Shown here: positions 11,489 through 28,281 of the stretch, in pieces
How positions within the stretch are numbered: position 1 is the first letter of the stretch
Layout of the letters: the number at the start of each line of letters is the position of its first letter
DNA from: an uncultured Acidobacteriota bacterium
GTDB lineage: Bacteria; Acidobacteriota; Vicinamibacteria; Fen-336; JAGNNV01
Reading direction: 5' to 3'
NCBI GenBank assembly: GCA_964646485.1
Contig: CAZYEA010000002.1
Span: 1 to 58,146 of the forward strand
DNA: 58,146 bases
The notes under the pieces: generated by a model
Database searches by the model: none
Told to the model about the DNA's origin: nothing
What the model saw: the letters and a program-made list of their open reading frames with translations, nothing else
Made by a program: the position numbers and the translations under genes

Positions 11489-12496
11489 TCAGAATCTGAA
11501 GAGGGACGCGTACCACTCGAGCACGGGATCGCCATAGAAAAGGACGAAGATGGCGGAGGCAGCGAGAAAGGTCCCGAAGGGAAGCTTGTACTTGCCGATG
11601 GAGACGGGATGGTCCTCCTCGTTCGCAGAGTGCGCCGTGGGGGCGTCCGGGTTCGGCGCCGACTCCGCGGGCGAACCAGCCTGTGGGTTTGAACCGGCGC
11701 CGGGTTCGGTCCCGGCCGATGGCCCGGGCGGAGGCGGGGAAACGGGGTCGGCGGGCGTGGGAGCCTCGGCATCCTCTGTGGGCGCCGCCACCGGAAGGGT
11801 CGCGGACTCGCGACGAAGCCGCACGGCCTGCACCAGACCGTAGGTCAGGCCGGAGAGGCTCGCGATGAAAACGGTCAGCATCAATCGCTGTGCCCCGAGA
11901 AAAGCGCCCATCATCGCGGCGAGCTTCCAGTCCCCCTGGCCAAGCCCCTCGATGCCCCGAAGGCGCGCGTAGCCCTCGGCGACCAGGAAGAAGGCTACAT
12001 ACCCGAAGGCGGCGGAGAGGCCCGCCTCCCTCCAATCGATGAGCGCGCCGGGCACGAGGCTTCCCGCAATCCCCACGAGGATGCCCGGAAGGGTGATCTC
12101 GTTCGGGAGAATCTGATGATCCCAGTCGATGAAGGCGAGAACCACGAGCGCGAAGAAGAAGAGCAGCAGCAAAAGCGTGAAGGGCAACGGGCCGAAGGTC
12201 CAGACGATGAGACCGAAGCCCAGGCCATGGAGAAGCTCCACCGCGGGGTAGCGAGGCGAGATCGGTTCACGGCACGAAGCGCAGCGGCCGCCGAGCCATA
12301 GCCAGGAGGCAACCGGGATGTTCTGCCAGGGCCGGATTGCGGCCCCGCATCGCGGACATCGTGAAGAGGGGAACACGATGGACTGATCGAGAGGCAAGCG
12401 ATGGATGACGACGTTGGCGAAGCTCCCGACGAGCAGACCGAACAGGGAGGCGACGAGGGTCGCGGCTACCGCCACGGGAATCAGGGAATCGGCCAT
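11489..12496 (-). CDS. pilD: prepilin peptidase / N-methyltransferase (A24 family)
   Basis: SFANVVIHRLP..SSRCPRCGAAIRPWQNIPVASWLWLGGRCASCREPISPRYPAVELL (Cys-rich methyltransferase region). Catalytic Asp motifs FIDWDHQILP and GQGDWKLAAMMG. Contains an unusual Pro/Ala-rich insert before the last TM helix. Confidence 0.9.
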   Translation of the reverse strand: MADSLIPVAVAATLVASLFGLLVGSFANVVIHRLPLDQSIVFPSSRCPRCGAAIRPWQNIPVASWLWLGGRCASCREPISPRYPAVELLHGLGFGLIVWTFGPLPFTLLLLLFFFALVVLAFIDWDHQILPNEITLPGILVGIAGSLVPGALIDWREAGLSAAFGYVAFFLVAEGYARLRGIEGLGQGDWKLAAMMGAFLGAQRLMLTVFIASLSGLTYGLVQAVRLRRESATLPVAAPTEDAEAPTPADPVSPPPPGPSAGTEPGAGSNPQAGSPAESAPNPDAPTAHSANEEDHPVSIGKYKLPFGTFLAASAIFVLFYGDPVLEWYASLFRF

Positions 12497-12560: not shown

Positions 12561-13424
12561 ATGTTGAGCACTGCTAACAAGGTCCTGATCGCCAGGATGT
12601 TGTACCGGGCCGTTCACCTCCTGCGGCGTCCCTTCGGGGGCAAGGATCAGGTGACGCTCCGCCGGGCAGGCCTGATGTGGAACCTGGACCTGCGCGAGGG
12701 AATCGACCTCACCATTTATCTCACCGGAGCGTTCGAGCGGGACACCCTGCGGGCGCTCGAAGCCCGGGTGGTTGAAGGAGCCGTCGTCCTCGATGTGGGA
12801 GCGAATGTCGGAGCCCACACCCTCCACCTCGCGCGGCTGGTCGGCGACAAGGGCCGGGTCATCGCCTTCGAGCCCACGGACTATGCGGTGGCTAAGCTCC
12901 GCGCGAACCTGAGGGCGAATCCGACGCTCGAATCGCGGGTCGAGGTTCACCAGGTCTTCCTGGTTGCCACCGAGGACACGGCCATGGTTTCCGCGCTCGC
13001 CTCGAGCTGGCCTGTGGACGGAACCCCGCCCGATGACGCGCAGATGTGCAGCCGGTCGATGAGTGTCACAGGCGCCGCCGCACGGACTCTGGATTCGATG
13101 ATGGCCGCCGCTGGAGATCCGGAAGTCACGCTGATCAAGATGGATGTCGATGGTCATGAACTCGAGGTTCTCGAGGGGGCGCAATCATTGCTCGCGAGGC
13201 GCCGGCCTATCATCGTCATGGAACTGGCCCCGTATGTGTTTCATCCTCCCGAGAAGTTCGATCTGATGGTGAACTTTCTCGTCCGCGCGGACTACTCGTT
13301 CCGGCAGTTGGGATCGAGGGCTCTCCTGCCGAGCGATCCCCTCTCGCTAAGGAGGCTCATTCCCGCCGAGGGTTCGGTGAATGTGGTGGCCTTTCCGCTG
13401 GGCCGGGATCAGGGCGCGGTCTAG
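12561..13424 (+). CDS. FkbM-family SAM-dependent methyltransferase
   Basis: VVLDVGANVGAHTLHLARLVG..VIAFEPTDYAVAKLRANL..TLIKMDVDGHELEVLEGAQSLL, the typical FkbM pattern. Confidence 0.8.
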   Translation: MLSTANKVLIARMLYRAVHLLRRPFGGKDQVTLRRAGLMWNLDLREGIDLTIYLTGAFERDTLRALEARVVEGAVVLDVGANVGAHTLHLARLVGDKGRVIAFEPTDYAVAKLRANLRANPTLESRVEVHQVFLVATEDTAMVSALASSWPVDGTPPDDAQMCSRSMSVTGAAARTLDSMMAAAGDPEVTLIKMDVDGHELEVLEGAQSLLARRRPIIVMELAPYVFHPPEKFDLMVNFLVRADYSFRQLGSRALLPSDPLSLRRLIPAEGSVNVVAFPLGRDQGAV

Positions 13425-13433
13425 GCTGCTTCC

Positions 13434-15587
13434 ATGACTCCGCCCGTGCGCACCGACGAGCGAACCCCTCTCTTTCCCATCGCGCTGCTGTGCCTCGCCG
13501 TTTCCGCGCTGTATGTGCTGTCCATGCTTTCCGTCACGGACAGCCATTTCGTGCCTCAGGTGTCCGATCTGTATCTCATCGCTCAGTATGCGAAGGGGTT
13601 CGCGGAGGGGTATCCATTCCAATACAACCCGGGCGACGCCCCAACCAGCGGCGCCACCAGCCTTCTCCACACCCTCTTCCTGGCCGCCGCCCACTTCGTC
13701 GGGTTCCGGGGGGAGGGCCTCATCGCCTTCGCCATTCTTTCCGGGGCCGGTTTCGGTTTCCTGACCGCGGTGGAGGCCTATCGGGCGGGCCGGATCCTCT
13801 CGGACTCTTCCCGCGTGGCCTTGCTTGGAACCGCGCTGGTGGTCCTGAACGGACCCCTGGCCTGGTCGTTTCACTATGGAGCGGACATAGCCCTCGTCCT
13901 TTTCCTCTCGGCGTGGCTGTTTCGAGCATGGCTTCAAGACGCCCGGACCGAGGGACGTCCCGAGACGAGCTTCGTCCTTCCCGCGTGTCTGCTCGCCCTG
14001 ACCCGACCCGAGGCCCTCGGCCTGGTTTCGATACTCGCGGCGTGGAGCCTGTGGGACGAGCGGGGGCGGAGAGGGCGGTGGGGAGCGCGGGCCCTCTGGT
14101 TTGCGCCACCCTTGACCGGGGTCATCCTGTCCCTGTGTCTTCGAGAGTTCACCGGCTCGGCTGCGAACACGTCCTTTTCCCGGAAGCTCCTTTCTGAAAA
14201 CTGGGGCCTCTTCGGAGCGGCGGTGTTCTCGCTCGAATATTGGACCGATATTCTCCGCGGTGTTCTTCTGGGCTTCTACCCAGCCTCGCAGCGCCTGGGC
14301 TTCGGCAGCGGCAACGCGCCTTATTTCGCTGCTCCCTTTCTGCTCGTCTTCGTGTTTCTTGCCCTCCTTCGGCCGTCCATGGAAATGCGACGGGCCGGGG
14401 CGTTCCTGTTCGCCGGTTTGTGCACCGCGGTCCTGGTGACTCCCACGGTCCATCTGGGGGTGCACTCCAACCGCTACCTGCTGTTCGCCCTTCCCCCGCT
14501 TCTGGTGCTCTCGGCTCTCGGCCTCGAGCAGGTCGCAGGTTGGATGGAATCCGCCTTCGGGCTGTCCCGGGGGGTGGCGTGGCGGCGTCTGAGTGTGCTG
14601 GCCCTGGTCTTCGCCGGCCTCAGCGTGCTTCGCTTCGCTTTGGTGTATGCGGACGCGGCCTCTTCGATCTATCGACGGGACGAGGCGCTGTTCACCTTCA
14701 TCAGAACGCGGCTGCCCGAGACGGCCACCTTCCTGAGCAACGGAACCGCGATCGAATATCGCACGGAACGACGCGCCGTCAACGTCAGCGGCGTGATCAC
14801 CCCCGACTTCGCCGAGATCCTTCCCGCCGAAACCGAGCCCGCGGCGTTTGAGCTGCTCAGTCGTCCCACCTTCGGACCCTTGCCCCCATACCTCATCGCC
14901 CTCGATTCCTACGTGGCCGGGTCGCCTGGCTGGAACGCAATCATCGGAGGCCCACCGGTGTTCGTGACCTCAAGTCTTGAGGACTCCGAATTCGCGGTCT
15001 ACCCGACCCGGAGCGATCTGATCGGGAGGCAGCGGGCCCCTCTGCGAATCGAGTTGCCACCAGGGCTCGATATGGTCGATTCGATCAACGTCGCCGATCC
15101 CCTCGATGAGAAGGGTCATGGCTACCGGTGGAATTCCACGGTGGGCACCCGCAGCCTGTTCGCGACGCTCAAGGTGGACCGATACCTCGGTTCCGCCCGG
15201 GGCGCCGGAACGGAAGTTGCGGATGGAGGGCGGCTCGTGATGGGGTCCGAGGAGATGAGCGTAAGGAGCCCACGAAGCGACGTCGATCTCTGGCTGGTGG
15301 TCCGCACCCACGGAGAGCCTTCCGCTCGAGTTCGCCATCCGGACGGGGATCGCCGCCTCGACGTCGCTCTGCCCGAGAGCGTGATGCGCTTCTCCACTCC
15401 CCGGGGCAAGACAGATTGGATTCGCACACGCCTCGAGCCCGGCTGGAACGAAATCGCGTACCGGCTTCCCGCACCGCTGCTCGATGGGACGGCCACCCGA
15501 GTGCGGATAGAAGGGCGATACGCCGCCTATTCCTATTTCGTCTACCAGGCGAAGGAAGCCGCTACAGGAGCCCCATCGCCCAGGTGA
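13434..15587 (+). CDS. polytopic membrane protein (about 12 TM helices) with a roughly 300-aa C-terminal soluble domain; GT-C-like architecture
   Basis: Continuous hydrophobic helices over roughly the first 400 aa. The first extracytoplasmic loop is acidic and aromatic (SVTDSHFVPQVSDLYLIAQYAKGFAEGYPFQYNPGD), as in GT-C enzymes. The C-terminal non-membrane domain ends RVRIEGRYAAYSYFVYQ. The function is inferred from architecture only. Confidence 0.55.
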   Translation: MTPPVRTDERTPLFPIALLCLAVSALYVLSMLSVTDSHFVPQVSDLYLIAQYAKGFAEGYPFQYNPGDAPTSGATSLLHTLFLAAAHFVGFRGEGLIAFAILSGAGFGFLTAVEAYRAGRILSDSSRVALLGTALVVLNGPLAWSFHYGADIALVLFLSAWLFRAWLQDARTEGRPETSFVLPACLLALTRPEALGLVSILAAWSLWDERGRRGRWGARALWFAPPLTGVILSLCLREFTGSAANTSFSRKLLSENWGLFGAAVFSLEYWTDILRGVLLGFYPASQRLGFGSGNAPYFAAPFLLVFVFLALLRPSMEMRRAGAFLFAGLCTAVLVTPTVHLGVHSNRYLLFALPPLLVLSALGLEQVAGWMESAFGLSRGVAWRRLSVLALVFAGLSVLRFALVYADAASSIYRRDEALFTFIRTRLPETATFLSNGTAIEYRTERRAVNVSGVITPDFAEILPAETEPAAFELLSRPTFGPLPPYLIALDSYVAGSPGWNAIIGGPPVFVTSSLEDSEFAVYPTRSDLIGRQRAPLRIELPPGLDMVDSINVADPLDEKGHGYRWNSTVGTRSLFATLKVDRYLGSARGAGTEVADGGRLVMGSEEMSVRSPRSDVDLWLVVRTHGEPSARVRHPDGDRRLDVALPESVMRFSTPRGKTDWIRTRLEPGWNEIAYRLPAPLLDGTATRVRIEGRYAAYSYFVYQAKEAATGAPSPR

Positions 15588-17010
15588 GGCCGAGGCTGTA
15601 GGCCAGAACCGAGGCGGCGAGAGCGAATCGAACGGGCTTCGGAAGCAGATCGAGTCCGTAGAAGCCGAACGCCACCAGAAAAGGGATCTTCACCGCGTAG
15701 TAGTAGAAGTCCAGGTAAGAGAGCGCGTGTGCCAGGACGATGGCTCCGAACAGGGTCAGGGGTGCGGCGAGAAAGGGATCCTTGCGGCGGACACCGAGGA
15801 CAAGTCCGACCAGGCCAACGATCAGGAGCGCGTCGTGCAGTGCCTGAAAAGCGTGGGCTTCCGGGCCACGGACCAGATTGATCCCGCTCCCCCCCGCGAT
15901 CCAGCGAGGGTCGAAGGGCGCGCGGGTCTGGACCTTCACGAAGGCGGTGAGGATCACGGCATTGATCCGAGTGACGAGACTCGTGGCGGCGGTGAAGAGG
16001 TTCAGGGCGTAGATATGGGGCCGAGCGATCACGTTTTCGAGGGACGCGGCCCGGGCGGCGTCCTCGAGCTTCAGCACGTTTCGGGCGTACGTCTCCGTGG
16101 TGATTACGGACTCTCCGGTGACCCGGCGATACAGCGGCAGATAGTGGTGCCGGGCCACGACGTTCCACTCGTAGACATCGGGATTCCTCACCATCACCGC
16201 GCTGGTGCTGGCGAAGGCGGCGGACCAGCCCTGGGCATGCACGGGAATGAGCCGCCCCGTCACCGCGAAATTGCGCGCCGTCCAGGGCGCAAGCAGCAAA
16301 GCGAAGCCGAGAACAAGGGCCAGGTAGCCGGCCCGGGCCTCGCCACCCTTGAGGCGGAGCAGGAAGACGGCGACCAGCAGGGCCGGGGCGATGAGGGTGA
16401 CCGGACGCACGAGGACGCCCGCCGCGAGCAGCAGGCCGGCCAGGAAGAAGATGGGCCGCGCCCCCGCAACGGGCCGCTCGAAGGCCACCTCCATGATGAG
16501 CAGGAAGGCGAGGAGAAAGACCCAGAACAGGATGTCGTAGTGGACGAGGGTCGCGACGTAGAGAGAGTACGGTGTCTCGGCGAGGACGATCTCACCCGCG
16601 AAGGCCATCGAATGGCCGAGCCTCAGGGACAACCAGAGAAAGAACAGGAAGGCGCTCAGGCCCAGGAGGAACGACTGGGTGAGGAGGACGGCTTCCGAAC
16701 CGCGGGCGTTGACCACCGCCTCAGGTGCGGTCGCTGGATCGGCGGCGAGTTTGAGGATGACCGCCACGAGAGCGGGAAAACCGGGCGCCCGGTAGACGAG
16801 AGGTTCCTCCCCGAACCCGAGCACGCCGTGCGAGGCAAGGTTCGCTCCCAGAGTGAACCAGTCGCCGTCAACACTTCCTCCCGCGAACCTCAGCGGAATC
16901 GCCCGGCCGGAGAGCGAAACCGCCAGCACCGCGCCGAACACAAGAAGGCCCAGCCAAATGCCGACCGATCCGAGTCCCCCCCGGGCTCCGCCGGGCTTGG
17001 AGCCTGGCAC
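15562..17010 (-). CDS. GT39/ArnT/PMT-like (GT-C) membrane glycosyltransferase-like protein
   Basis: N-terminal TM helix then loop GGSVDGDWFTLGANLASHGVLGFGEEPLVYRAPGFPALVAVILKL, resembling the ArnT/PMT_2 first-loop motif. About 11 more TM helices follow. GTG start at 17010 overlaps the upstream TAG by 1 nt. Confidence 0.6.
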   Translation of the reverse strand: MPGSKPGGARGGLGSVGIWLGLLVFGAVLAVSLSGRAIPLRFAGGSVDGDWFTLGANLASHGVLGFGEEPLVYRAPGFPALVAVILKLAADPATAPEAVVNARGSEAVLLTQSFLLGLSAFLFFLWLSLRLGHSMAFAGEIVLAETPYSLYVATLVHYDILFWVFLLAFLLIMEVAFERPVAGARPIFFLAGLLLAAGVLVRPVTLIAPALLVAVFLLRLKGGEARAGYLALVLGFALLLAPWTARNFAVTGRLIPVHAQGWSAAFASTSAVMVRNPDVYEWNVVARHHYLPLYRRVTGESVITTETYARNVLKLEDAARAASLENVIARPHIYALNLFTAATSLVTRINAVILTAFVKVQTRAPFDPRWIAGGSGINLVRGPEAHAFQALHDALLIVGLVGLVLGVRRKDPFLAAPLTLFGAIVLAHALSYLDFYYYAVKIPFLVAFGFYGLDLLPKPVRFALAASVLAYSLGLTWAMGLL

Positions 17011-17861
17011 TAACGTCGCCAGTAGGGCGAGTGCCGAGCCAGCCTCACCAATCCAAGATTGGGTTCGAACTCGAAGGGGATCCCGGCCTGGTCCACGGAG
17101 GCTTCCACAACTCCCGCCGCTCTCAGCTGCTGGAGAGATGAACCGTGGTCTCCGGTGCGGGCCTGGTAGGCCTGAACCTGCTCCTGCACCCGCTTCGCAA
17201 CCATGCGGTTCTTGACCACGGCAATCATGGTCGCGGCGTTGTCCTTGATGAGCCCTGGTTCCGACTGCTCAAAAATGACCGTCCACATGCTCAAGGAGGC
17301 CTCCAGCTCCCCGCCATTGACGAGGATCTGGGCGGCCAGCGCCCGCATCCAGAAGGGCGCTCCGGGAATGGAAGCTGCGGTCGACAAGATCTCCGCGCCG
17401 CCTCTGGGATCGTTGCGGTAGAAGAAGGTGAACAGGCCCTGTTCTTCACGCAAGCGCCAGTTCGCCGGGTTGCGATCGGCGCCCAGCTTCAGGAGTGCCA
17501 CTCCTTTGGCCGGAGCGCCGGCGCCTATCGGATTGGGTTCGGACAGGAAGACCGCGCCGTATCGATAGACCATCTCGAATCGAGGATCGAGCACGGCCGC
17601 AGTCTCGAGAAGGGGAAGCAGATCCGCGTACGAGTCGGGGGCTCCGGCCAGCCGCTGACGCCCGTAGTACTGCACGGCCCGGAGCCAGTAGATGTCGGCC
17701 AATACGTCGGAGAAACCGAGGCTAAAGGCCCGAACCACCGGGCCGGTCCACACGCTGGACACATCCGGCTCAGGCCCCATGGCCGTCCTGGTTCGGTCCA
17801 CGCGATTCTGAAGGGAGGGAACCAGGAGGGCGGCGACCAGGAAGGCAGCGAGGGACTTCAC
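17010..17861 (-). CDS. exported helical-repeat protein of unknown function, coupled to the ABC-2 permease
   Basis: The GTG at 17861 overlaps the permease TGA (GTGA). Signal-like VKSLAAFLVAALLVPSLQN; helical repeat-like body (FSDVLADIYWLRAVQYYG.., AAVLDPRFEMVYRYGAVFL.., ALLKLGADRNPANWRL..). The 5' part of track ORF 17010..18254 overlaps the permease and was rejected. Confidence 0.6.
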   Translation of the reverse strand: MKSLAAFLVAALLVPSLQNRVDRTRTAMGPEPDVSSVWTGPVVRAFSLGFSDVLADIYWLRAVQYYGRQRLAGAPDSYADLLPLLETAAVLDPRFEMVYRYGAVFLSEPNPIGAGAPAKGVALLKLGADRNPANWRLREEQGLFTFFYRNDPRGGAEILSTAASIPGAPFWMRALAAQILVNGGELEASLSMWTVIFEQSEPGLIKDNAATMIAVVKNRMVAKRVQEQVQAYQARTGDHGSSLQQLRAAGVVEASVDQAGIPFEFEPNLGLVRLARHSPYWRR

Positions 17862-18634
17862 TTCAGATCGCGCCTCTTGAAGGCGAGGGTGGCGAGGGCC
17901 AGGAGCGCCCCCGTATAGGCGGCTGCGTACAGGGAGATTTCGAAAAGCAAGGTCGCGGGGATGGTATCGGCGTAAACGGCGCGCGTCTTCAGATCGAAAT
18001 CCTGCAGATTGGGCACCACGTAATAGACCGCCGTGCCCAGCCACTCCGGGAAGTCCTTGAGGATCACCGATGCGTTCTTGAGCACATCGGACATGCGGCC
18101 CAACACGCAGAGCACGGTTGAACCCATGAGGGCAAGCGCGCGCGATGAGGTGGTGGAGAGAAACGCGGCGATTGCGCCAGTAAGAGCTAGCTGAAGAAGG
18201 ATCGCGTAAACCGCCTTCGCCAGGGCGAGGGTGAAGGACCCATTCGCCACCCACAGGGCCACGGCCAGGCCGAGGGTCATGAGCGCGACGCTGGTCGTGA
18301 TGGTGGAGCAGAGCCCCAGGTACCGCCCCACGATGAACTCACTGCGGGTCAGGGGCTTCACCAGCAGGAGATGAAGCGTGCGCTTCTCCACGTCGCGGCT
18401 GATGAGGTCGGAGCCCAGGAAGAGAGCAATGAGGGTGCCGAAGAACTCGGTCGCGGCGAGACCGATGTCCATGAGAATCTTCAAGTCCTGATGAACTGAA
18501 ATGTCCTTCAGGATCAGGGCGGAAGCCATCAGCACGAAGGCGAAGAACAGCAGACCCAGGAACAGGCGCTGCCTTACCGATTCGAGGTGGGTGTTGTAGG
18601 CCACCGCCCACAGTCGGCGCCCGACCGGTGGCAT
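17858..18634 (-). CDS. ABC-2 type transporter permease
   Basis: MPPVGRRLWAVAYNTHLESVRQRLFLGLLFFAFVLMASAL..GSDLISRDVEKRTLHLLLVKPLTRSEFIVGRYLG (characteristic ABC-2 motif), six hydrophobic helices. The ATG at 18634 overlaps the ATPase TGA by 1 nt. Confidence 0.8.
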   Translation of the reverse strand: MPPVGRRLWAVAYNTHLESVRQRLFLGLLFFAFVLMASALILKDISVHQDLKILMDIGLAATEFFGTLIALFLGSDLISRDVEKRTLHLLLVKPLTRSEFIVGRYLGLCSTITTSVALMTLGLAVALWVANGSFTLALAKAVYAILLQLALTGAIAAFLSTTSSRALALMGSTVLCVLGRMSDVLKNASVILKDFPEWLGTAVYYVVPNLQDFDLKTRAVYADTIPATLLFEISLYAAAYTGALLALATLAFKRRDLK

Positions 18635-19542
18635 CACCGCCTGGCCTCGGGCCCGGGGCCGAGGAGATCCTCGATCGAGGCGCGGACGGGCGAGACGCTG
18701 ACGATATGCGCCCCGCGGCGGACAAGGCCGTCGAGAGCCGAGGCAAGCTCGGCCTTGCCGACTCGAAGGGTGGACCGATCTCCCCGGCCTGCCTCGCCCG
18801 GTTGTGCCGTCCCGCGCGGGAGAGTACTCGCGACTTCGAACTCCGAGGGCAGGCCCAGAAGCTCGTCGAGGGTTCCCACCGCGGTCAGGAGGCCGTTCCT
18901 CATGAGCGCCACCCGATCGCAAATGAACTCGGCGTCGGGAACGATGTGGGTTGAAAACAGGATCGAACATCCCTGCGCCTTGAGCTCGAGGAGCAGGTCA
19001 CGGACAAAGCGGCGGCCCAGCGGGTCGAGGCCGGACATCGGTTCGTCCAGCACGAGCAGCTTGGGCTCATTGAGGAGTGCCTGGCCGAGGCCGAGCCGTT
19101 GCATCATGCCTTTGGAGTAGGTGCGGATAGGTCGATCCGCGCTCGCGGTGAGGCCGACGCGCTCAAGCAGCTCGGCAATCCGGACTTTCGAGGAGGCTCG
19201 CTTCTGGTCGAAGAGTTCCGCGCAAAAGGCAAGGAACTCGCGACCCGAAAGATATTCGTAGAAGGAGGGCTGTTCCGGGAGGTATCCGACCTGTGAGCGC
19301 CAGGCGCCGCTGCGCAAAGGAGCGCCCATCAACTCGATATAGCCGGAATCAGGAACGAGCAGTCCAAGCAGGAGCTTGAGGGTGGTGGTCTTTCCGGCTC
19401 CGTTGGCGCCGAGCAGGCCCACAATCTCGCCCTCGGAAACTTTGAGGTCGAGTGGGCCGACGCGAAAACCCGGACCGCGGCGGAAGGGTGTTCGCTGGAC
19501 CTTGACGAGACCCGACAGGGACAGAAACTCTTGGCTTTTCAC
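18634..19542 (-). CDS. ABC transporter ATP-binding protein
   Basis: Walker A GLLGANGAGKTTTLKLL, signature YSKGMMQRLGLGQAL, Walker B LLVLDEPMSGLD, H-loop STHIV. GTG start. Confidence 0.9.
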   Translation of the reverse strand: MKSQEFLSLSGLVKVQRTPFRRGPGFRVGPLDLKVSEGEIVGLLGANGAGKTTTLKLLLGLLVPDSGYIELMGAPLRSGAWRSQVGYLPEQPSFYEYLSGREFLAFCAELFDQKRASSKVRIAELLERVGLTASADRPIRTYSKGMMQRLGLGQALLNEPKLLVLDEPMSGLDPLGRRFVRDLLLELKAQGCSILFSTHIVPDAEFICDRVALMRNGLLTAVGTLDELLGLPSEFEVASTLPRGTAQPGEAGRGDRSTLRVGKAELASALDGLVRRGAHIVSVSPVRASIEDLLGPGPEARR

Positions 19543-19610
19543 GCTTCGCTGGCCTCAAGTCTATTCGGGAACGGGCCACGGCGGCCCGTGCTTCCGAACC
19601 GCCGGTCCGC

Positions 19611-19640
19611 AAAAAAAACCCCGGGCGGTTAAGCCCGGGG
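19611..19640 (-). terminator. rho-independent terminator downstream of pilA
   Basis: Minus strand reads CCCCGGGC-TTAACC-GCCCGGGG followed directly by TTTTTTTT: a perfect 8-bp GC stem, 6-nt loop and T8. A second 6-bp hairpin (GGGCGG-GTTT-CCGCCC) sits at 19650..19665. Confidence 0.8.
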
Positions 19641-19679
19641 TTGCCGAAGGGGCGGAAACCCGCCCATTCAACTATGTCG

Positions 19680-20222
19680 TTACTGGATGACCGTGCAGGT
19701 CGGGCCGAGCTGCCACGCGTTCGCCGCGCCATTCTGGCCGCATTCGAAGGCGCCCGTGATGTTCTGGCAGACGCGACCGGAGGCATCGCCGCCGAAGCCG
19801 CGAACGCCGGTCTGGTTCTGAGTGGTGGGCGTAGCGTCGTAGCAGAAGCCGTCAACAACACCCAAGAGCGTGGTGGGGAGGGGCGCCGCGATATTGCCGG
19901 GAGTGAACGAGCGGTTGTAGCCGCTCTTCGGGGTCAGACCAGTGATGGTCGGGTCCGCGAAAGTCGGCGCGTTGGCGGGATAGTTGACGATGCAGGTGGC
20001 CGGAGTGTTGAGGCAGGCGATGGGCGCGTACCAGCCGTTTGCGGCGGACTGGAAGGCGGCCTGGGCCGAGATGACGGAGCGGATGTCGCCGATCGTGCCG
20101 GCCTCGTTCGCGGAGACGCGAGCGCGGAGGAGAGAGGGAATCGCGATAGCGGCGATGATGCCGATGATCGCAACGACGATCAGGAGCTCGATGAGCGTGA
20201 AGCCTTTTTGATTCTTTTTCAT
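19680..20222 (-). CDS. pilA: major type IVa pilin
   Basis: MKKNQKG/FTLIELLIVVAIIGIIAAIAIPSLLRARVSANEAGTIGDIRSVISAQAAF: short basic leader, Gly-Phe cleavage site, Glu5. C-terminal globular part has 6 Cys. The upstream in-frame ATG at 20264 was rejected because it would give an atypically long leader. Confidence 0.9.
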   Translation of the reverse strand: MKKNQKGFTLIELLIVVAIIGIIAAIAIPSLLRARVSANEAGTIGDIRSVISAQAAFQSAANGWYAPIACLNTPATCIVNYPANAPTFADPTITGLTPKSGYNRSFTPGNIAAPLPTTLLGVVDGFCYDATPTTQNQTGVRGFGGDASGRVCQNITGAFECGQNGAANAWQLGPTCTVIQ

Positions 20223-20288
20223 TTGGGAGTCTTTCGAAGGGTTGAAGGTTGACGAGCCAGTCATCTAGCTCGCACTGCGCTCCGAACC

Positions 20289-20407: not shown

Positions 20408-21781
20408 TCAATCCCCTGACTTCTTCGAAAGCAGATATTTGAGGGCACGCTCCGAGATCCCCAGCAACTCGGCGGCCTCCGCCCGACGGTCGTCGGCGAG
20501 TTCCATAGCGCGCTTCACCAGTTGAGACTCGGTGCGCTTGAGGTACTCGTTGAGGGAGAAGCCTGGATAGGGCTCCGGTACCGCCTGTTCCCGGCCCGGG
20601 CTCGCGAGAGACAGGTCTCGCGGCCCCACGACCTCTCCCGAGGCCAGAGTGAGGGCACGCTCCACCACATTTTCGAGCTCGCGGACATTCCCCGCCCAGG
20701 AGTGTCGCATGAGCGCGGACATAGCCGCTGGGGAGAAAGGACGTTTGGGGAGGCCCGACTGGAAGAGGCGGCTCGAAAACTCCGCAACCAGAAGGGGGAT
20801 GTCGTCGGGGCGCTCGCGCAGCGGGGGCAGAGAAACCTGGATCACGTCGATGCGGTAGTACAAGTCCTCGCGGAAGGCGCCTTCGCGAACCATCTGCATG
20901 AGGTCGCGGTGGGTGGCCGCAATCACGCGGACATCGACCGGCGTTTCTTCGGCGCCGCCCACCCGGCGCACCCGGCGCTCCTGAATCACTCGCAGGAGCT
21001 TGACTTGCATGCCCAGGGACATCTCGGCGATTTCGTCGAGAAAGAGCGTTCCCTGGTGCGCCTGTTCGAAGACACCCTCGCGCGACTGGCGCGCGTCGGT
21101 GAAGGCGCCTTTCACGTGGCCGAACAATTCGCTTTCGAGCAGGGACTCGGCGATGGCCCCGCAGTTGACGGCCACAAACGGGCGGTGCTTCCGGGGCGAG
21201 AGATCGTGAATCGCGCGGGCCGCGAGCTCCTTGCCGGTCCCGCTCTCCCCCACGATCAGCACCGTGGATGAGGAGCCGGCCACGGCACGGATGCGCTCAA
21301 TCACCGAACGCATGGCCGCGGATTTGCCGATCAGGCCCTGGATTCCCGCGCGCGCCCCCACCTGGGCGCGCAGTTCGCGGTTCTCGCGCCGCAGATGGGC
21401 GCCTTCGATCGCCTGGCGCGCGCGAATGCGGAGCTCGTCGAGGTCGAAGGGCTTGGTCAGGTAGTCGTGGGCCCCGAGCTTCATCGCCGCGACCGCGGTA
21501 TCCGCGGAGCCGTGGGCGGTCAACACGATCACCGCGGTTTCCGGGGAATCCTCGCGCACGCGGCGAAGAACGGACAGCCCGTCGCCGTCGGGAAGCTGGA
21601 GATCCGTCACCACCAGGTCCCAGTGTTCCGAAAGCTGGGACATGGCCTCGACCTGCCCGGCCGCCACCCCGACCTCGAAGCCCGCGCGGGTCAGGCCGAG
21701 CTTCAGGACATCGCGAAGGGAGGGCTCGTCGTCGACGACGAGGATCCGGCCGTCCGGCTCACGCGAAGCGGCCTCGCTCAC
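20408..21781 (-). CDS. pilR: sigma54-dependent response regulator PilR
   Basis: Receiver (RILVVDDEPSLRDVL..LVVTDLQLPDGDG), AAA+ (VGESGTGKELAARAIH, GAFTDA, ESELFGH), C-terminal HTH (AAELLGISERALKYLL). The GTG start overlaps the pilS stop (GTGA). Confidence 0.9.
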   Translation of the reverse strand: MSEAASREPDGRILVVDDEPSLRDVLKLGLTRAGFEVGVAAGQVEAMSQLSEHWDLVVTDLQLPDGDGLSVLRRVREDSPETAVIVLTAHGSADTAVAAMKLGAHDYLTKPFDLDELRIRARQAIEGAHLRRENRELRAQVGARAGIQGLIGKSAAMRSVIERIRAVAGSSSTVLIVGESGTGKELAARAIHDLSPRKHRPFVAVNCGAIAESLLESELFGHVKGAFTDARQSREGVFEQAHQGTLFLDEIAEMSLGMQVKLLRVIQERRVRRVGGAEETPVDVRVIAATHRDLMQMVREGAFREDLYYRIDVIQVSLPPLRERPDDIPLLVAEFSSRLFQSGLPKRPFSPAAMSALMRHSWAGNVRELENVVERALTLASGEVVGPRDLSLASPGREQAVPEPYPGFSLNEYLKRTESQLVKRAMELADDRRAEAAELLGISERALKYLLSKKSGD

Positions 21782-23433
21782 GCCACCGCTCCCGAAGCGC
21801 CCGCGCGCGCGGCCTGGGGATGGACCTCGGCGAGCAGGCGAATGCGGACCCTGGTGCCTCTCGCGGGCTCGGACGATATGAGCAGGTCGCCGCCCCGCGC
21901 CCGTACCAGGCGATGCGCAATGGCCAGACCGAGGCCGGTGCCCATGGCCTTGCTCGTGCGCAGGGGCTCGAAGAGCTGGGCGAGGCGACGGCGCTCCATG
22001 CCCTGACCCTCGTCGGCAACCTCCACTTCCAGATACTCATCGAGGTCGCGGATGGTGAAGGCCAGAGTCCCGCCCTGGGGCATGGCCTCGAGACCGTTGC
22101 GAGCGAGGTTCCAGACCACCTGCATCAACTCTTCCTCGGCGATCGAAACCCGCACCGGGCGCGGGTGGGGAGTGAAGCTGATGATGTGCTCCGGACGTCT
22201 CTCCGGGCTGATCTCGATAAGCCTCACCGCGTCCCTCAGCACACCGTTGAGGTCGCAGTAGACGGCCGGGTCGTGGGTCTTCACTTCGCGGAGATAGGAG
22301 GTGACGGTGGAGGCCAGGCGTTCGGCCTCTTTGGAAATGATGCGAAGCAGATCCTTCTGGTCCTCGGCGATGGGCGAGGCCTCGGAGAGGAGCTTGGTGG
22401 CCGCGCTGATGGCGCCCAGGGGGTTGCGGATCTCGTGGGCGAGCTGGGCCGCGGCGCTGCCCGCGACCGCGAGCTTCTCGTTCAGCAGGGCCTGCGCCTC
22501 GAGCCGACGCACTTCGGTGAGGTCGCGAATGACCAGGAGGCGCCCGCCCGGCGCCGCGTCGGAAAGCTCCGAGATCCACAGGCCCAGGGTCCGCAGATCT
22601 CCGTCGCCGCGCACGTGTTCGAGTTCGAGCGTGGTTTCAGACCCCGGCTGCGCGCGCGCGCGAAGCTCCGGCGAATTGAAGAGCTCGTCGACCGAGCGGC
22701 TCTGGAGATTCTCGCGGGTGATGCCCAGCATCTCCGCGACACTCGCGTTTGCGAACGACACCCGGTCGGAATTGTCGGTCACGAGAAGGCCCGAATGGAT
22801 GTTCTCGACCACCAGCCGGTTGAAGTCCTGCAGGGTGGCCACCTCGCCCGCCGCCGCATCGAGGCTCTCTCCCGCGCGCTTGAGGGCGCGGGTGAGAAAC
22901 TGACCGAGAGCCGCCACCGGGAACGAGGAAAGGGCCATCCCGATGAGCGCGCCAAAGAGCGGGCGCAGTTCGCCCCGGGCGATCTGTCCCACGTTCTCCT
23001 CGGGAATGACGTCGGCGCGCACGAGCAGGAGCACGGCGGCAAAGAGAATGTTCGCCACCGTCGCAAAGAAGAAGCCGCGACCGAGGAGCACGCTGCCGCA
23101 CAGGACGCTGATCGGATAGAGGATGGCAAATCCGGTCCGGTCCACGCCGGTCAGGTAGACAAACCCGGTCACCACCAGAAGGTCCCCGAGGATCTGCACC
23201 GTGGCCTGCACCCGATAGGGAGCGGCCGCCATCAGGATGGCGTAGACGAGGTTCAGGGCGAAGGTCGCCGATATGAGGCGGAAGATCGGCGGGCTCAGCG
23301 TCCCCTCTTGAACCGCCTCCAGGTATCCGGCCACGAACAAGAGGACGGTGACGATCACCAGACGGAACCCGATCAGGGCTCCGAGCGAAAACGGAGCGTC
23401 GGGCGATGGTGAGTGATCCGGAAAACGGCGCAT
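21778..23433 (-). CDS. pilS: sensor histidine kinase PilS (multi-TM N-terminus, PAS, HisKA, HATPase)
   Basis: About six N-terminal TM helices, a PAS-like segment (LVVENIHSGLLVTDNSDRVSFANASVAEMLG), H-box AAQLAHEIRNPLGAI, N-box VVWNLARNGLEAM, G-boxes VADEGQGM and TGLGLAIAHRLV. Confidence 0.85.
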   Translation of the reverse strand: MRRFPDHSPSPDAPFSLGALIGFRLVIVTVLLFVAGYLEAVQEGTLSPPIFRLISATFALNLVYAILMAAAPYRVQATVQILGDLLVVTGFVYLTGVDRTGFAILYPISVLCGSVLLGRGFFFATVANILFAAVLLLVRADVIPEENVGQIARGELRPLFGALIGMALSSFPVAALGQFLTRALKRAGESLDAAAGEVATLQDFNRLVVENIHSGLLVTDNSDRVSFANASVAEMLGITRENLQSRSVDELFNSPELRARAQPGSETTLELEHVRGDGDLRTLGLWISELSDAAPGGRLLVIRDLTEVRRLEAQALLNEKLAVAGSAAAQLAHEIRNPLGAISAATKLLSEASPIAEDQKDLLRIISKEAERLASTVTSYLREVKTHDPAVYCDLNGVLRDAVRLIEISPERRPEHIISFTPHPRPVRVSIAEEELMQVVWNLARNGLEAMPQGGTLAFTIRDLDEYLEVEVADEGQGMERRRLAQLFEPLRTSKAMGTGLGLAIAHRLVRARGGDLLISSEPARGTRVRIRLLAEVHPQAARAGASGAVA

Positions 23434-25890: not shown

Positions 25891-28281
25891 TTATGCCGTG
25901 TCTCCAAGCATACCTTCAGGTGTCCCGTTCGGGGTTGCCGGTCGGAGGAGGGTGAAGGCGAGAAGGAGGGCGGTGATGGCGCTCACCAGGACGCCGGCCA
26001 CCGCAGTCGTCGGCAGGTATCGAAAATCGACCCGGTGGGCGCCCGCGGGAACCTCCACTCCAATGAATGCGGCATTGGCGCGTTCCACCCGCGTCGACAC
26101 GCCGTCCACCCACGCCCTCCACCCTGGGAGCCTGCCCTCGAGGGCAACGAGGAAGGAGGGCTGGTCCGCTTTGACCTCGACCGCGAACCGATCGGCACGC
26201 CTCTGCAGCAGCACAGCCGTCCCCGCGAAATTCGGCGCGGCGTCCCGGAACGGCCCGGAATCGACGAGGACAGTCGTCTGCGGATCGAATCCCGGGTCGA
26301 TCAGATCCGAAAGGTCGCGACCTGTGCCCTGCCGCCGCCCGGAGGTGAGAAAGACCCTCGGACGCGCGCCTGGCACGGCGAAGACCCGCAGTTCCTGGGC
26401 CTGGAAGACGTTGTGGCGGGATAGAAGGCCCAGATCCTCCATGCCCTGTTCATGACGGGCCGCCACCTTCTGAACCCCGGAGATCTGCAGGAGCTTCAGA
26501 AAACCCGGCGTCCCCTCGACGCGTCGCAGGCCTCCGGTCAGAGCGGCCAGGCGGCGATCGAACAGCAGCCTGAGGTCGGCATCCCACGCATAGTCCAAAT
26601 TCCAGAGGGCTCCGGTCAGGGGTAAAAGTGAAGCGCGGGTCGCCACGAGAGCCGCGGCGTCCGGCGAGAGGCCATCGAGGCCTGTCGGCTCCCAGGCCGA
26701 GCCCGAGGTCAGATACTTCTGCGCCCGGCCCTCGAACAGGAAGTAATCGTAGACGTAGATCCGACCTCCCGCCGAAGGGCGCAGCAGATCCAGGTGTGGT
26801 GGCTTGTACCCGAGAAGACGGCTCGGGAGAGTGGGGTTGAGTCCCGAGTGAATATGGATGCTCTGGCTCAGGTGGCCGAAGGCGAGTACGCAAGCGATGA
26901 GAGGGCCGAATCGGCCCAGGCGGCCCCAGGTGGACAATGCGAGTCCGACAAGAACGCTCGCGGATACGAGTAGATCCGGAGGCAGATTGCTCCGAACATC
27001 GCTCATGGCCGAGGTCATCCCAGGATCCAGGAAGGCGCCCACGAAGGCCTCCCACAACGGCCCTCGAAGCACCAGCCCCACGGCCGCCAGCAGAGTTGCC
27101 GTCACCACTGCGACGCGGCGGGCTCTTTGGGACCGGCCGAGGGACGATGCGCCCAGGCCGGCGAGAACGCAAAGGAGGATGGCGGCCGGAATGACCGCCT
27201 TGCTTGGAAAACGCAGAATCTTCAGGGGCGGGATGAGGGCGACCGCAATCGGGTAGGCCGCGGCGTTCTTGCCGAGGGAGACGAGAAGGGCGCCGATCGC
27301 TCCGAGAGCGCAGGCGAGCCGCCGCAGGCGAGGTATCCGGGAATCGGCGAGCGCGGCCAGGGCGAGAGGCAGAATCAGGGAGCCGAGGAAGACGGAGCCG
27401 AGGAATGGCTCGCGGCCTTCAAAAAGGGCCTGCCTCCATTCCGTCCGCAAGGGGAACGCGGCGAGCGGCACCGGGAGGAAGAGCTCCAGCAGGGACACGG
27501 GGTGGAGAGACCACGAGGTGCGGGTGGTTTCGGACAAGGCCGCGCGAGCGGAGGCCGAGAGAATCTCCATCGCGGGCAACCAGACGCCGGCGCTCAAGGC
27601 CAGAGCGGTAGCGAGGCTCAAGAGCAACCCTCGGGCCGCGCGGAAGTACGCAGGAGGCGGGATGAAGAGAACGGAGAGCAGAACCGTCATCGCGCACATG
27701 TCGGCGGACCCGGCGAGGATCTGCAGACCAAAGGCGGCGCCGAGCCCGCCGATCGCACGTGGCTCCTTTTCCTGCACCCGCACGACGCCCAGCAGGACCC
27801 AGGGAATCCACGCCGCTCCGGACATGTGGTGCCAGAGAGTGGCCAGGGATTGGAGCGGGCCGCAGAGGAGCCACGCGGCGCCGCCGACCGCCGCAGAGAG
27901 CCAGGAGCCTTGGGAGATCCGCTGCGCCAACATCGCCACGCCGAGCGCGCCGAAAACCGAATGAAGGGAGACAAACCAGGCATAGGCGAGGTGGGGCGGA
28001 AAGAGAAGGTGGAGAAGCACCGGCGGGTACAGGATCTGGCAACTCGGGTCGGCCAGCAGCGGCTGACCGAAGGCCGAGGTCGGATCGCGCAGCGGCAGGG
28101 CACCCTCGCTGAGTCCACGCAGAGCCGACTGCACGAGCGGAAAGTAAAGGAGGAAGAGGTCGCGCTGATACAGGGCCACGGTTCCCATGAGCACGGGAAG
28201 ACGGAGGAGGAACTCGATCCCGAAAAAGAGCAGAAGCAGTATCCCGGTCGCTCGGCGGGCAGACACCTCGACTGGCTTCAC
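25891..28281 (-). CDS. YfhO-like (GT-C fold) polytopic membrane protein, 796 aa
   Basis: N-terminal YfhO-type pattern LYQRDLFLLYFPLVQSALRGLSEGALPLRDPTSAFGQPLLADPSCQILYPP. Many TM helices. C-terminal pattern ..LPGWRAWVDGVSTRVERANAAFIGVEVPAGAHRVDFRYLP followed by a final TM helix. Paralog of 33932..36199. Confidence 0.7.
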   Translation of the reverse strand: MKPVEVSARRATGILLLLFFGIEFLLRLPVLMGTVALYQRDLFLLYFPLVQSALRGLSEGALPLRDPTSAFGQPLLADPSCQILYPPVLLHLLFPPHLAYAWFVSLHSVFGALGVAMLAQRISQGSWLSAAVGGAAWLLCGPLQSLATLWHHMSGAAWIPWVLLGVVRVQEKEPRAIGGLGAAFGLQILAGSADMCAMTVLLSVLFIPPPAYFRAARGLLLSLATALALSAGVWLPAMEILSASARAALSETTRTSWSLHPVSLLELFLPVPLAAFPLRTEWRQALFEGREPFLGSVFLGSLILPLALAALADSRIPRLRRLACALGAIGALLVSLGKNAAAYPIAVALIPPLKILRFPSKAVIPAAILLCVLAGLGASSLGRSQRARRVAVVTATLLAAVGLVLRGPLWEAFVGAFLDPGMTSAMSDVRSNLPPDLLVSASVLVGLALSTWGRLGRFGPLIACVLAFGHLSQSIHIHSGLNPTLPSRLLGYKPPHLDLLRPSAGGRIYVYDYFLFEGRAQKYLTSGSAWEPTGLDGLSPDAAALVATRASLLPLTGALWNLDYAWDADLRLLFDRRLAALTGGLRRVEGTPGFLKLLQISGVQKVAARHEQGMEDLGLLSRHNVFQAQELRVFAVPGARPRVFLTSGRRQGTGRDLSDLIDPGFDPQTTVLVDSGPFRDAAPNFAGTAVLLQRRADRFAVEVKADQPSFLVALEGRLPGWRAWVDGVSTRVERANAAFIGVEVPAGAHRVDFRYLPTTAVAGVLVSAITALLLAFTLLRPATPNGTPEGMLGDTA

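What the first reader, a model, noticed from the sequence alone, without database searches (positions are those of the whole stretch)
15562..19542. pilA-proximal ABC-2 exporter chained by overlapping codons to an exported helical protein and a GT39-like enzyme
Four genes lie immediately downstream of pilA and are linked by stop/start overlaps. ATPase to permease share 1 nt (TGATG), permease to exported protein overlap as GTGA, and exported protein to GT39-like share 1 nt. This implies a stoichiometric complex. ABC-2 (Wzm/Wzt-type) exporters move polyprenyl-linked glycans, and ArnT/PMT-type GT-C enzymes transfer from polyprenyl carriers in the periplasm. In P. aeruginosa the pilin glycosyltransferases (tfpO; the GT-C tfpW) are also encoded directly downstream of pilA. 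The module may therefore be more than the enigmatic M. xanthus PilGHI-type transporter. It could be an export-plus-transfer device acting on pilin or the pilus machinery.
Basis: partly seen in the sequence, partly recalled or inferred. Interest (0 to 1): 0.65.

Follow-up and report, generated by a model that had tools for sequence, protein, structure and literature searches.

The report
Pilus ABC module plus optional sugar-transferase
The first three genes after the pilin gene are this soil acidobacterium's version of the known but unexplained PilH/PilI/PilG pilus-assembly ABC system, and the fourth is a real membrane sugar-transferase that only a few close relatives carry, so the four are not one fixed machine.

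Summary
Observation confirmed. Four minus-strand genes follow pilA and are joined by the stated overlaps (TGATG, GTGA, TAGTG).

They are not one unit. The ATPase, ABC-2 permease and exported TPR-like protein form a conserved triad. In 80 species loci, almost all Acidobacteriota, the permease directly precedes the TPR gene in 72 of 73 assessable loci. A prepilin gene lies upstream in 48 of 59. The permease-to-TPR 4-nt overlap recurs in 50-58 of 80. This matches the composition and position of Myxococcus PilH/PilI/PilG, between pilA and pilD.

The ABC part is NosF/NosY-like. It is not Wzm/Wzt-like.

The 482-aa fourth protein has a GT-C glycosyltransferase fold (pTM 0.90). Its best structural matches are AglB, ArnT, STT3 and Pmt4. 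It has an invariant Asp48, Asp/Glu50 and Trp51 in the first external loop. It has no Pfam PMT hit of its own.

This fourth gene follows the triad in only 2 of 68 species loci. Close relatives with and without it are interspersed on the tree. Family members also occur elsewhere, including outside pil loci. Pilins of carriers and non-carriers do not differ in any informative way.

The slot after the triad is variable and often holds other GT-C-type genes. Pilus-linked glycosylation is plausible but unproven. An integrated "export plus transfer" device is unlikely.

The parts
19680..20222 (-). pilA, the major type IV pilin. The likely start is the ATG at 20222 (MKKNQKGFTLIELL). The longest ORF reaches 20264.
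   Evidence: Pfam N_methyl 2.3e-11. Relatives' pilins all start MKKNQKGFTLIE.
19609..19642 (-). Intrinsic-terminator-like hairpin plus T8 run between pilA and the ABC ATPase gene.
   Evidence: 10-bp stem with 8 GC pairs and a T8 tail. A hairpin, with a T-rich tail in most, is present at the same place in 8 of 8 relatives, with different sequences.
18634..19542 (-). ABC ATPase (302 aa), PilH-like and NosF-like.
   Evidence: PF00005 3.3e-31. The best free-standing bacterial match among solved structures is NosF, 2e-53. NCBIfam top hits are DrrA and GldA; no Wzt, TagH or KpsT in the top 25.
17858..18634 (-). ABC-2 permease (258 aa), PilI-like and NosY-like.
   Evidence: PF12679 1.6e-11, found in 18 of 18 orthologues. 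The family profile matches only NosY among solved structures, 1.8e-4.
17010..17861 (-). Exported or membrane-anchored TPR-like protein (283 aa), the PilG-position accessory of the ABC module.
   Evidence: AF2 pLDDT 88.8; helix 2-27, then a helical-repeat array 40-236 and a small C-terminal beta element. Foldseek top hits are TPR arrays. 4084 family representatives at E<=1e-3. A permease lies directly upstream in 72 of 73 loci.
15562..17010 (-). GT-C-fold membrane glycosyltransferase (482 aa). It belongs to an unnamed small acidobacterial family, called 'GT482' in this report.
   Evidence: AF2 pLDDT 88.1, pTM 0.90. Foldseek hits are AglB 1.8e-4, ArnT 2.7e-4, STT3, Pmt4, PglB and PimE. D48, W51, R74, P76, G77 and P79 are invariant and position 50 is D or E. 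No Pfam hit of its own. 25 homologues found.
13434..15587 (+). Convergent 717-aa polytopic membrane protein. Its 3' end overlaps the GT482 3' end by 26 nt.
   Evidence: ORF. No Pfam hit; a weak hit to the LA_3751/3752 putative glycosyltransferase family, 0.0079. It follows the triad or GT482 in most Vicinamibacteria loci.
12561..13424 (+). FkbM-family methyltransferase, co-directional with the 717-aa gene.
   Evidence: PF05050 8.4e-20; TIGR01444 2.4e-28.
11489..12496 (-). Prepilin peptidase PilD, which closes the pilA...pilD segment.
   Evidence: PF06750 2.4e-34 and PF01478 1.3e-22.

Best explanation
The segment is a composite of two things.

(1) Genes 1-3 are the acidobacterial form of the PilH/PilI/PilG pilus-accessory ABC system, which lies between pilA and pilD. 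They encode an ATPase, an ABC-2 permease and a membrane-anchored periplasmic TPR protein. The engine is NosF/NosY-like. I infer that it does not pump a glycan. Instead, ATP-driven movements of the permease are passed to the tightly co-translated TPR partner, which handles pilin or another pilus-assembly component on the periplasmic face.

(2) Gene 4 is a GT-C-fold glycosyltransferase. I infer that it takes a sugar from a polyprenyl-phosphate carrier and adds it to a periplasmic acceptor, using the Asp48-x-Asp/Glu50 loop. It is a lineage-restricted, dispensable accessory. It sits in the variable slot between the triad and pilD, where other genomes carry YfhO-like, PMT-like or other glycosylation genes. 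Its acceptor is possibly pilin (about 35-40%), but this is not shown.

Shown: gene structure, folds, conserved motifs and distribution. Inferred: mechanotransduction, donor and acceptor.
For: - Junctions and ORFs.
- Triad conservation: permease upstream of the TPR gene in 72 of 73 loci; prepilin gene within 5.5 kb upstream in 48 of 59; pilD directly after the triad in 7 loci.
- Conserved 4-nt permease/TPR overlap.
- M. xanthus pilA-pilG-pilH-pilI is one operon (MXAN_5783-5780). It is needed for pilus assembly and pilin export, and PilG is annotated as an 'ABC transporter accessory factor' (PMC3546991, PMC3724824, PMC3924187).
- NosY is the only solved-structure match of the permease profile, and NosF is the best free-standing bacterial ATPase match.
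- GT-C fold and acidic loop of GT482.
- GT482 is next to the triad in only 2 of 68 species loci.
- Loci with and without GT482 are interspersed on a triad tree.
- GT482 relatives occur elsewhere.
- The slot after the triad holds a YfhO-like gene in 20 of 68 loci. PMT/PMT_2 and GT2-methyltransferase genes also occur there.
Against: - Homology of the TPR protein to M. xanthus PilG itself could not be tested, because no Myxococcus sequence was reachable. The assignment rests on position, composition and unchecked earlier notes from this scan.
- Eleven of 59 loci with enough upstream sequence have the triad without a nearby pilin gene. The four of them whose neighbours were scanned carry PAS-GAF-GGDEF, amidohydrolase, asparaginase, hydantoinase or thioredoxin-TPR genes instead. 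The triad may therefore have a wider role.
- No biochemical data exist for any member.
- In the window and in L091, GT482 is translationally coupled to the TPR gene. This could still reflect a physical partnership in this lineage.
- The NosY match is modest (E 1.8e-4) and covers only the first 160 residues.
Confidence: 0.7

Rival explanations
1. All four proteins form one export-plus-transfer machine. The ABC-2 pump flips or presents a polyprenyl-linked glycan, the helical protein bridges, and the GT-C enzyme transfers the glycan to pilin.
For: - Stop/start overlaps link all four genes in the window. A 4-nt overlap links Exp and GT in L091.
- The GT-C fold and acidic loop are real.
- Glycosylation genes repeatedly occupy the neighbouring slot.
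- TfpW, a GT-C enzyme with its own TPR domain, glycosylates pilin and is encoded next to pilA (10.1101/2020.04.19.049825).
Against: - The triad occurs without GT482 in 66 of 68 species loci, and directly before pilD in 7.
- The nearest relatives L014, L008, L011, L012, L017 and L050 lack GT482.
- GT482 works in other contexts without the ABC module.
- The permease and ATPase resemble NosY and NosF, not Wzm/Wzt.
- No pilin residue co-varies informatively with GT482 presence.
Confidence: 0.08
2. GT482 is a glycosyltransferase for a non-pilus envelope target (LPS, an exopolysaccharide or another periplasmic protein). It merely resides in a recombination-prone accessory island of the pil locus.
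For: - Half of the examined family contexts are not next to the triad. Examples are aldo-keto reductase/MacB, OmpA/VWA, and an operon with an IspD-like nucleotidyltransferase and BipA.
- Three tandem copies occur in L094.
- No pilin signature correlates with its presence.
Against: - Members at 49% identity or more lie inside pil clusters in 7 distinct contexts and outside them in 2: window, L003/L004, L007, L009/L091, L092, L094 (probably, by the 717-aa/FkbM pair alone) and L095, against L001/L002 and L093.
- It is co-oriented with, and coupled to, the pilus ABC operon.
Confidence: 0.3
3. The ABC triad is a polysaccharide exporter, as proposed for Geobacter xapD (GSU1501), and its effects on pili are indirect.
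For: xapD was reported necessary for about 50% of exopolysaccharide in G. sulfurreducens and is annotated as a sugar ABC transporter (PMC5585712, 10.1101/114900).
Against: - The xapD mutant lacks detectable PilA (10.1101/114900).
- In M. xanthus, exopolysaccharide depends on pili, so exopolysaccharide loss can be secondary (PMC3724824).
- The fold class is NosFY-like.
- Homology between xapD and the window ATPase was not tested here.
Confidence: 0.1

Closest known systems
Myxococcus xanthus PilG-PilH-PilI (MXAN_5782-5780; TCDB 3.A.1.144.5)
   Same: It comprises an ABC ATPase, a polytopic permease and an extracytoplasmic accessory protein. It is encoded after pilA, before pilD and downstream of pilS-pilR. 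It is required for pilus assembly. The window has the same three components in the same segment.
   Different: The gene order here is H-I-G rather than G-H-I. A terminator-like hairpin separates the module from pilA. Sequence homology of the accessory protein to PilG was not tested. In this lineage a GT-C gene is appended.
NosD-NosF-NosY (nitrous oxide reductase maturation ABC complex; PDB 7o0y and related entries)
   Same: The permease profile matches only NosY among solved structures, and the ATPase matches NosF at 2e-53. Both systems pair an ABC-2 engine with a periplasmic partner protein.
   Different: The partner here is a TPR-like helical protein with an N-terminal anchor, not a beta-helix NosD. 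The context is pilus genes, not nos genes. That the Nos ABC module acts on its periplasmic partner rather than pumping a substrate is my own knowledge, not a tool result.
Pseudomonas aeruginosa TfpW (group IV pilin D-arabinofuranosyltransferase)
   Same: It is a GT-C-superfamily membrane enzyme with an acidic motif (DDX) in the first periplasmic loop. It is encoded in the pilin accessory slot, and a TPR module is involved.
   Different: TfpW is 646 aa with its own C-terminal TPR domain and lies immediately after pilA. GT482 is 482 aa with no TPR domain and lies three genes and a terminator away. The adjacent TPR protein belongs to the ABC module. No sequence comparison with TfpW was possible.
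ArnT, AglB, STT3 and PMT (GT-C_A glycosyltransferases)
   Same: These are the best structural matches. An Asp lies just after TM1 in the first external loop.
   Different: TM-scores are only 0.4-0.5 and sequence identity is 11-14%. There is no large soluble periplasmic domain and no Pfam PMT/PMT_2 hit for the window protein.
Geobacter sulfurreducens xap genes (xapD = GSU1501) after pilA
   Same: An ABC transporter gene lies directly downstream of the pilin gene. Its loss removes detectable PilA.
   Different: It is interpreted in the literature as an exopolysaccharide exporter. Homology to the window genes comes only from unchecked earlier notes of this scan.

Membership tests
PilG/PilH/PilI pilus-accessory ABC system | Encoded in the pil cluster between pilA and pilD, co-oriented with pilA | tested here: met
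   The window order is pilS-pilR-pilA-ATPase-permease-TPR-...-pilD. The same order occurs in most of the 80 loci, and pilD directly follows the triad in 7.
PilG/PilH/PilI pilus-accessory ABC system | Three components: ABC ATPase, polytopic ABC-2 permease, extracytoplasmic accessory protein | tested here: met
   PF00005 and PF12679. The third protein has an anchor helix plus a TPR-like array.
PilG/PilH/PilI pilus-accessory ABC system | Sequence homology of the accessory protein to M. xanthus PilG | not testable with these tools
   The genome search was shut. The genome-contig scan returned almost only Acidobacteriota. Names in cluster look-ups were uninformative. Earlier notes of this scan assert the homology, but I did not verify it.
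PilG/PilH/PilI pilus-accessory ABC system | Required for pilus assembly or pilin export | not testable with these tools
   This needs genetics in a cultured strain.
GT-C glycosyltransferase superfamily | Polytopic GT-C membrane fold | tested here: met
   AF2 pTM 0.90. The top 29 Foldseek PDB hits are all GT-C-fold membrane proteins, nearly all GT-C glycosyltransferases, and almost all have probability 1.0.
GT-C glycosyltransferase superfamily | Conserved acidic residue(s) in the first extracytoplasmic loop | tested here: met
   D48 is invariant, position 50 is D or E, and W51 is invariant across 22 sequences at 34-75% identity. The motif comes directly after TM1.
GT-C glycosyltransferase superfamily | Uses a polyprenyl-phosphate-linked sugar donor | not testable with these tools
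   Inference from the fold. A Dpm1/GtrB-like GT2 gene lies at 32658-33380 in the window.
   No hit at E<=0.01 for the window protein. Only 3 of 25 homologues carry a precomputed PF13231 hit, flagged weak where seen in locus context. A profile search of PDB sequences found nothing.
Wzm/Wzt-type ABC-2 glycan exporters | Permease of the PF01061 type, with Wzt-type ATPase features | tested here: not met
   The window permease hits PF12679, not PF01061. PF01061 appears in 4 of 18 orthologues against PF12679 in 18 of 18. There is no Wzt_C domain. The only solved permease match is NosY; the best free-standing bacterial ATPase match is NosF, behind eukaryotic ABCA transporters.
TfpW-type pilin glycosyltransferase | GT-C membrane domain fused to a C-terminal periplasmic TPR domain, encoded immediately after pilA | tested here: not met
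   GT482 is 482 aa with no TPR domain. Three genes and a terminator separate it from pilA.
NosDFY-type ABC complex | NosY-like permease and NosF-like ATPase with a periplasmic NosD beta-helix partner | tested here: inconclusive
   The permease and ATPase similarity is met. The partner is TPR-like, not NosD-like.

The most novel reading that the evidence does not exclude
In this Vicinamibacteria lineage, the PilG-like TPR protein would serve two roles. It would be the moving arm of the NosFY-like PilHI engine, and it would also present the acceptor to the co-translated minimal GT-C enzyme. Together they would form a 'split TfpW', in which ATP-driven pilin handling and pilin glycosylation are physically coupled at the inner membrane.
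Probability: 0.1. Interest if true: 0.75.

Novelty: new member of a known kind. Interest (0 to 1): 0.36.

Why it matters
PilGHI has been required-but-unexplained in Myxococcus pilus assembly since 1998.

Three findings give a concrete, testable mechanism (mechanotransduction rather than export):
- The triad is near-universal in acidobacterial pil loci.
- Its engine is NosFY-like.
- Its permease and TPR genes are almost always translationally coupled.

The variable slot behind the triad holds GT482, YfhO-like, PMT-like and GT2-methyltransferase genes. It resembles the pilin-accessory slot of Pseudomonas. This suggests widespread, diversifying pilus-linked glycosylation in a major soil phylum.

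GT482 itself is an unannotated, compact GT-C family with clear candidate catalytic residues.

Tried and rejected
- Pfam and NCBIfam scans of GT482 gave no family.
- A sequence-profile search of PDB with the GT482 alignment gave nothing. Only the fold search resolved it.
- I tried to place the TPR protein with M. xanthus PilG:
  - The genome tools were shut.
  - The genome contigs patterns retrieved almost only Acidobacteriota.
  - The representative search returns no names.
  - A cluster look-up gave only 'TPR repeat protein', 'hypothetical protein' and one Vicinamibacteraceae name.
- I tested the idea, from earlier notes and from a remembered GspG-like motif, that the C-terminal 85 residues are pseudopilin-like:
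  - No T2SSG Pfam hit.
  - No significant PDB sequence hit; the best relevant hit is the GspL periplasmic domain at E 0.58.
  - I leave this as inconclusive.
- hhalign of GT482 against the 717-aa protein and the two YfhO-like paralogues gave only weak, co-linear, non-significant matches (P 5e-4 to 0.04).
- I looked for fusions of the TPR protein with a permease or a GT-C enzyme among 150 representatives. No clear case was found.
- I looked for a pilin residue that tracks GT482 presence. Only one uninformative column emerged.
- I had assumed that P0012 lies next to the TPR gene because both are on the same contig. That was wrong: it lies between pilT and a YfhO gene, on the other strand.
Full report
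**1. The observation**

On the minus strand the order is:
- pilS (21778-23433)
- pilR (20408-21781)
- pilA (19680-20222, or 20264 for the longest ORF)
- an ABC ATPase (18634-19542)
- an ABC-2 permease (17858-18634)
- a 283-aa exported protein (17010-17861)
- a 482-aa polytopic protein (15562-17010)

Downstream lie a convergent 717-aa membrane protein, whose 3' end overlaps by 26 nt, and an FkbM methyltransferase. Prepilin peptidase PilD follows.

Between pilA and the ATPase gene is a 137-nt spacer. It holds a 10-bp GC-rich hairpin followed by T8. A comparable hairpin, of different sequence and in most cases followed by a T-rich tail, sits at the same place in all eight relatives examined. The ABC operon is therefore downstream of a terminator or attenuator, not fused to pilA.

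**2. What the four proteins are**

*ATPase.* It is a standard ABC ATPase (PF00005, 3.3e-31). NCBIfam places it nearest DrrA and GldA. It has no Wzt-type C-terminal domain.

*Permease.* It is PF12679 (ABC2_membrane_2) in the window and in all 18 orthologues scanned. The Wzm-type PF01061 appears in only 4 of 18. A profile of the permease family matches one solved structure only, NosY (7o0y_D, E 1.8e-4). After eukaryotic ABCA proteins, the ATPase's best match is NosF (2e-53).

*Third protein.* It has no Pfam family. AlphaFold2 with a 21-sequence alignment gives pLDDT 88.8. The model has an N-terminal hydrophobic helix (2-27), a helical-repeat array (40-236) and a small C-terminal beta element. 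Foldseek returns TPR arrays such as OGT and TFIIIC. Nine of 21 members give weak TPR_14 hits.

*Fourth protein, here 'GT482'.* It has no Pfam or NCBIfam hit and no sequence-level PDB match. It folds confidently (pLDDT 88.1, pTM 0.90). The top 29 structural matches are all GT-C-fold membrane proteins: AglB, ArnT, STT3, Pmt4, PglB, ALG3, PimE, AftB, DPY19 and the GPI-transamidase subunit PIGU. Across 22 homologues at 34-75% identity:
- Asp48 and Trp51 are invariant.
- Position 50 is Asp or Glu.
- An R74-x-P-G-x-P79 motif follows.

The acidic motif lies immediately after TM1 on the side opposite the basic N-terminus. That is where GT-C enzymes carry their catalytic Asp (established knowledge). 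'GT-C' is therefore supported. 'GT39-like' is not specifically supported.

**3. Distribution: a triad plus an optional fourth gene**

A genome-contig scan with the TPR-protein profile returned 80 species-level loci. Almost all are Acidobacteriota (Vicinamibacteria, Marinacidobacterales, Terriglobia). I ran tblastn with the window's proteins against these loci.

| Measure | Result |
|---|---|
| Permease directly upstream of the TPR gene | 72 of 73 loci with room |
| Prepilin gene within 5.5 kb upstream, same strand | 48 of 59 |
| Typical order | pilB-pilT-pilC-pilS-pilR-pilA(1-3 copies)-ATPase-permease-TPR |
| pilD directly after the triad | 7 loci |
| Permease/TPR 4-nt overlap | 50-58 of 80 |

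The triad matches the composition and position of M. xanthus pilA-pilG-pilH-pilI-pilD. In M. xanthus:
- pilAGHI is one operon, and PilG is annotated as an ABC accessory factor (PMC3546991).
- The three proteins are needed for pilus assembly and pilin export (PMC3724824; PMC3924187, TCDB 3.A.1.144.5).

GT482 behaves differently. An HMM of the family finds it next to the TPR gene in only 2 of 68 species loci with enough downstream sequence, L007 and L009. Metagenome contigs add L003/L004, L091 and L095 with the window's full synteny.

Very close relatives lack it cleanly, with the TPR gene abutting the 717-aa gene: L008, L011, L012, L013, L014, L017 and L050. On a concatenated ATPase-permease-TPR tree, carriers and non-carriers are interspersed. 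For example, L007 (with GT482) is sister to L014 (without).

The family itself is small, with 25 hits, and it is mobile:
- L092: between pilT and a YfhO-like gene, on the opposite strand.
- L094: three tandem copies before the 717-aa/FkbM pair.
- L001/L002: beside aldo-keto reductase and MacB genes.
- L093: beside OmpA and VWA genes.
- A 34-41%-identity subfamily in a housekeeping neighbourhood with an IspD-like nucleotidyltransferase and BipA.

Pilins of carriers and non-carriers are almost identical, and no informative column separates them.

**4. The slot behind the triad**

In the 68 assessable loci, the next recognisable gene is distributed as follows:

| Next gene | Loci |
|---|---|
| YfhO-like | 20 (18 convergent, 2 co-directional) |
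| pilD | 7 |
| 717-aa family | 5 |
| GT482 | 2 |
| Something else | 34 |

Sampling the last group gave more YfhO-like proteins, a PMT/PMT_2 protein, two GT2-methyltransferase fusions, a methyltransferase and four unknown large proteins.

The window also carries two YfhO-like paralogues and a Dpm1/GtrB-like GT2 elsewhere in the pil region. Earlier notes of this scan report the same.

The region between the triad and pilD therefore behaves as a variable island enriched in lipid-carrier-dependent glycosylation genes. It is reminiscent of the Pseudomonas pilin accessory slot, where tfpW lies after pilA. This supports the general idea of pilus-linked glycosylation, but through interchangeable accessories rather than a fixed four-part device.

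**5. Counter-observations**

Eleven loci, mostly distant Terriglobia-like ones, have the triad with no pilin gene within reach. Neighbours were scanned in four of them: three have PAS-GAF-GGDEF proteins, alongside hydantoinase and thioredoxin-TPR genes, and the fourth has amidohydrolase and asparaginase genes. The triad may have uses beyond pili, or pil genes may be dispersed in those genomes.

I could not test homology of the TPR protein with M. xanthus PilG directly. Several earlier notes of this scan assert it. They also assert a pilin-like C-terminal head. My tests of that head were negative or inconclusive.

Geobacter xapD is an ABC gene right after pilA. It is described as an exopolysaccharide exporter, yet its mutant lacks PilA. 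That is a live rival for the triad's role, but it is also compatible with a primary pilus function.

**6. Mechanism and verdict**

Most likely (about 0.7 overall), the locus is a PilH/PilI/PilG-type, NosFY-like ABC engine acting through its TPR partner on pilus assembly, plus a lineage-specific GT-C glycosyltransferase. That enzyme probably modifies a periplasmic acceptor from a polyprenyl-phosphate sugar.

Pilin is the most attractive acceptor (about 35-40%) but has no specific support. The integrated export-plus-transfer model gets about 8%.

The finding is real, and the GT-C call is correct. The module is essentially the known PilGHI system with an optional, newly recognised GT-C family member attached.

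Noticed in passing
window 19609-19642 (minus strand); L003 7304-7442, L007 7831-7990, L091 2387-2503 and others: A strong GC hairpin directly after pilA, followed by a T run in most cases, is conserved in position but not in sequence in all 8 relatives checked. It is often preceded by a second hairpin. It looks like a conserved attenuator that sets the pilin-to-ABC expression ratio.
   Followed up: partly
L058 10980-15868, L074 11179-13482, L066 14159-16339: In three of the four pilin-less triad loci whose neighbours were scanned, the next genes are convergent PAS-GAF-GGDEF diguanylate cyclases. This suggests a link between the triad and c-di-GMP signalling in those lineages.
   Followed up: partly
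L094 2-3335: Three tandem GT482-family paralogues (one cut by the contig end, then 480 aa and 491 aa) precede the convergent 701-aa/FkbM pair. The family is locally amplified.
   Followed up: partly
L092 6001-7383: A GT482 homologue (51% identity) lies between pilT and a YfhO-like gene, next to pilB, on the opposite strand. It is in the same pil cluster but a different slot from the window.
   Followed up: no
L087 10001-12078; L005 7563-11449: The distant GT482 subfamily (34-41% identity) overlaps by 4 nt with an IspD/MobA-like nucleotidyltransferase gene or with BipA. It lies a few kb from a sigma54 regulator and a PilY1-like/minor-pilin operon.
   Followed up: no
window 15562-15587: GT482 and the convergent 717-aa gene overlap at their 3' ends by 26 nt, with no terminator between them. 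Similar overlaps of 20-48 nt occur in L003, L094 and L095. There is none in L091.
   Followed up: partly
L083 10902-12602; L038 3437-5155; L073 12093-13862: Other loci carry a PMT/PMT_2 protein or a methyltransferase-GT2 fusion right after the triad. Different glycosylation genes occupy the same slot.
   Followed up: partly
window 20222-20264: The longest pilA ORF starts at 20264. All relatives' pilins begin MKKNQKGFTLIE, so the real start is probably the ATG at 20222.
   Followed up: partly
L012 386-1781, L017 4336-5669, L016/L039/L043/L044 and others: Many related loci carry two or three tandem, near-identical pilA copies upstream of the triad. The window has one.
   Followed up: no
window 25891-28281 and 33932-36199: The two YfhO-like membrane proteins of the window are clear paralogues of each other (hhalign E 2e-157). 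Neither is detectably related to GT482 or to the 717-aa protein at the sequence-profile level.
   Followed up: partly
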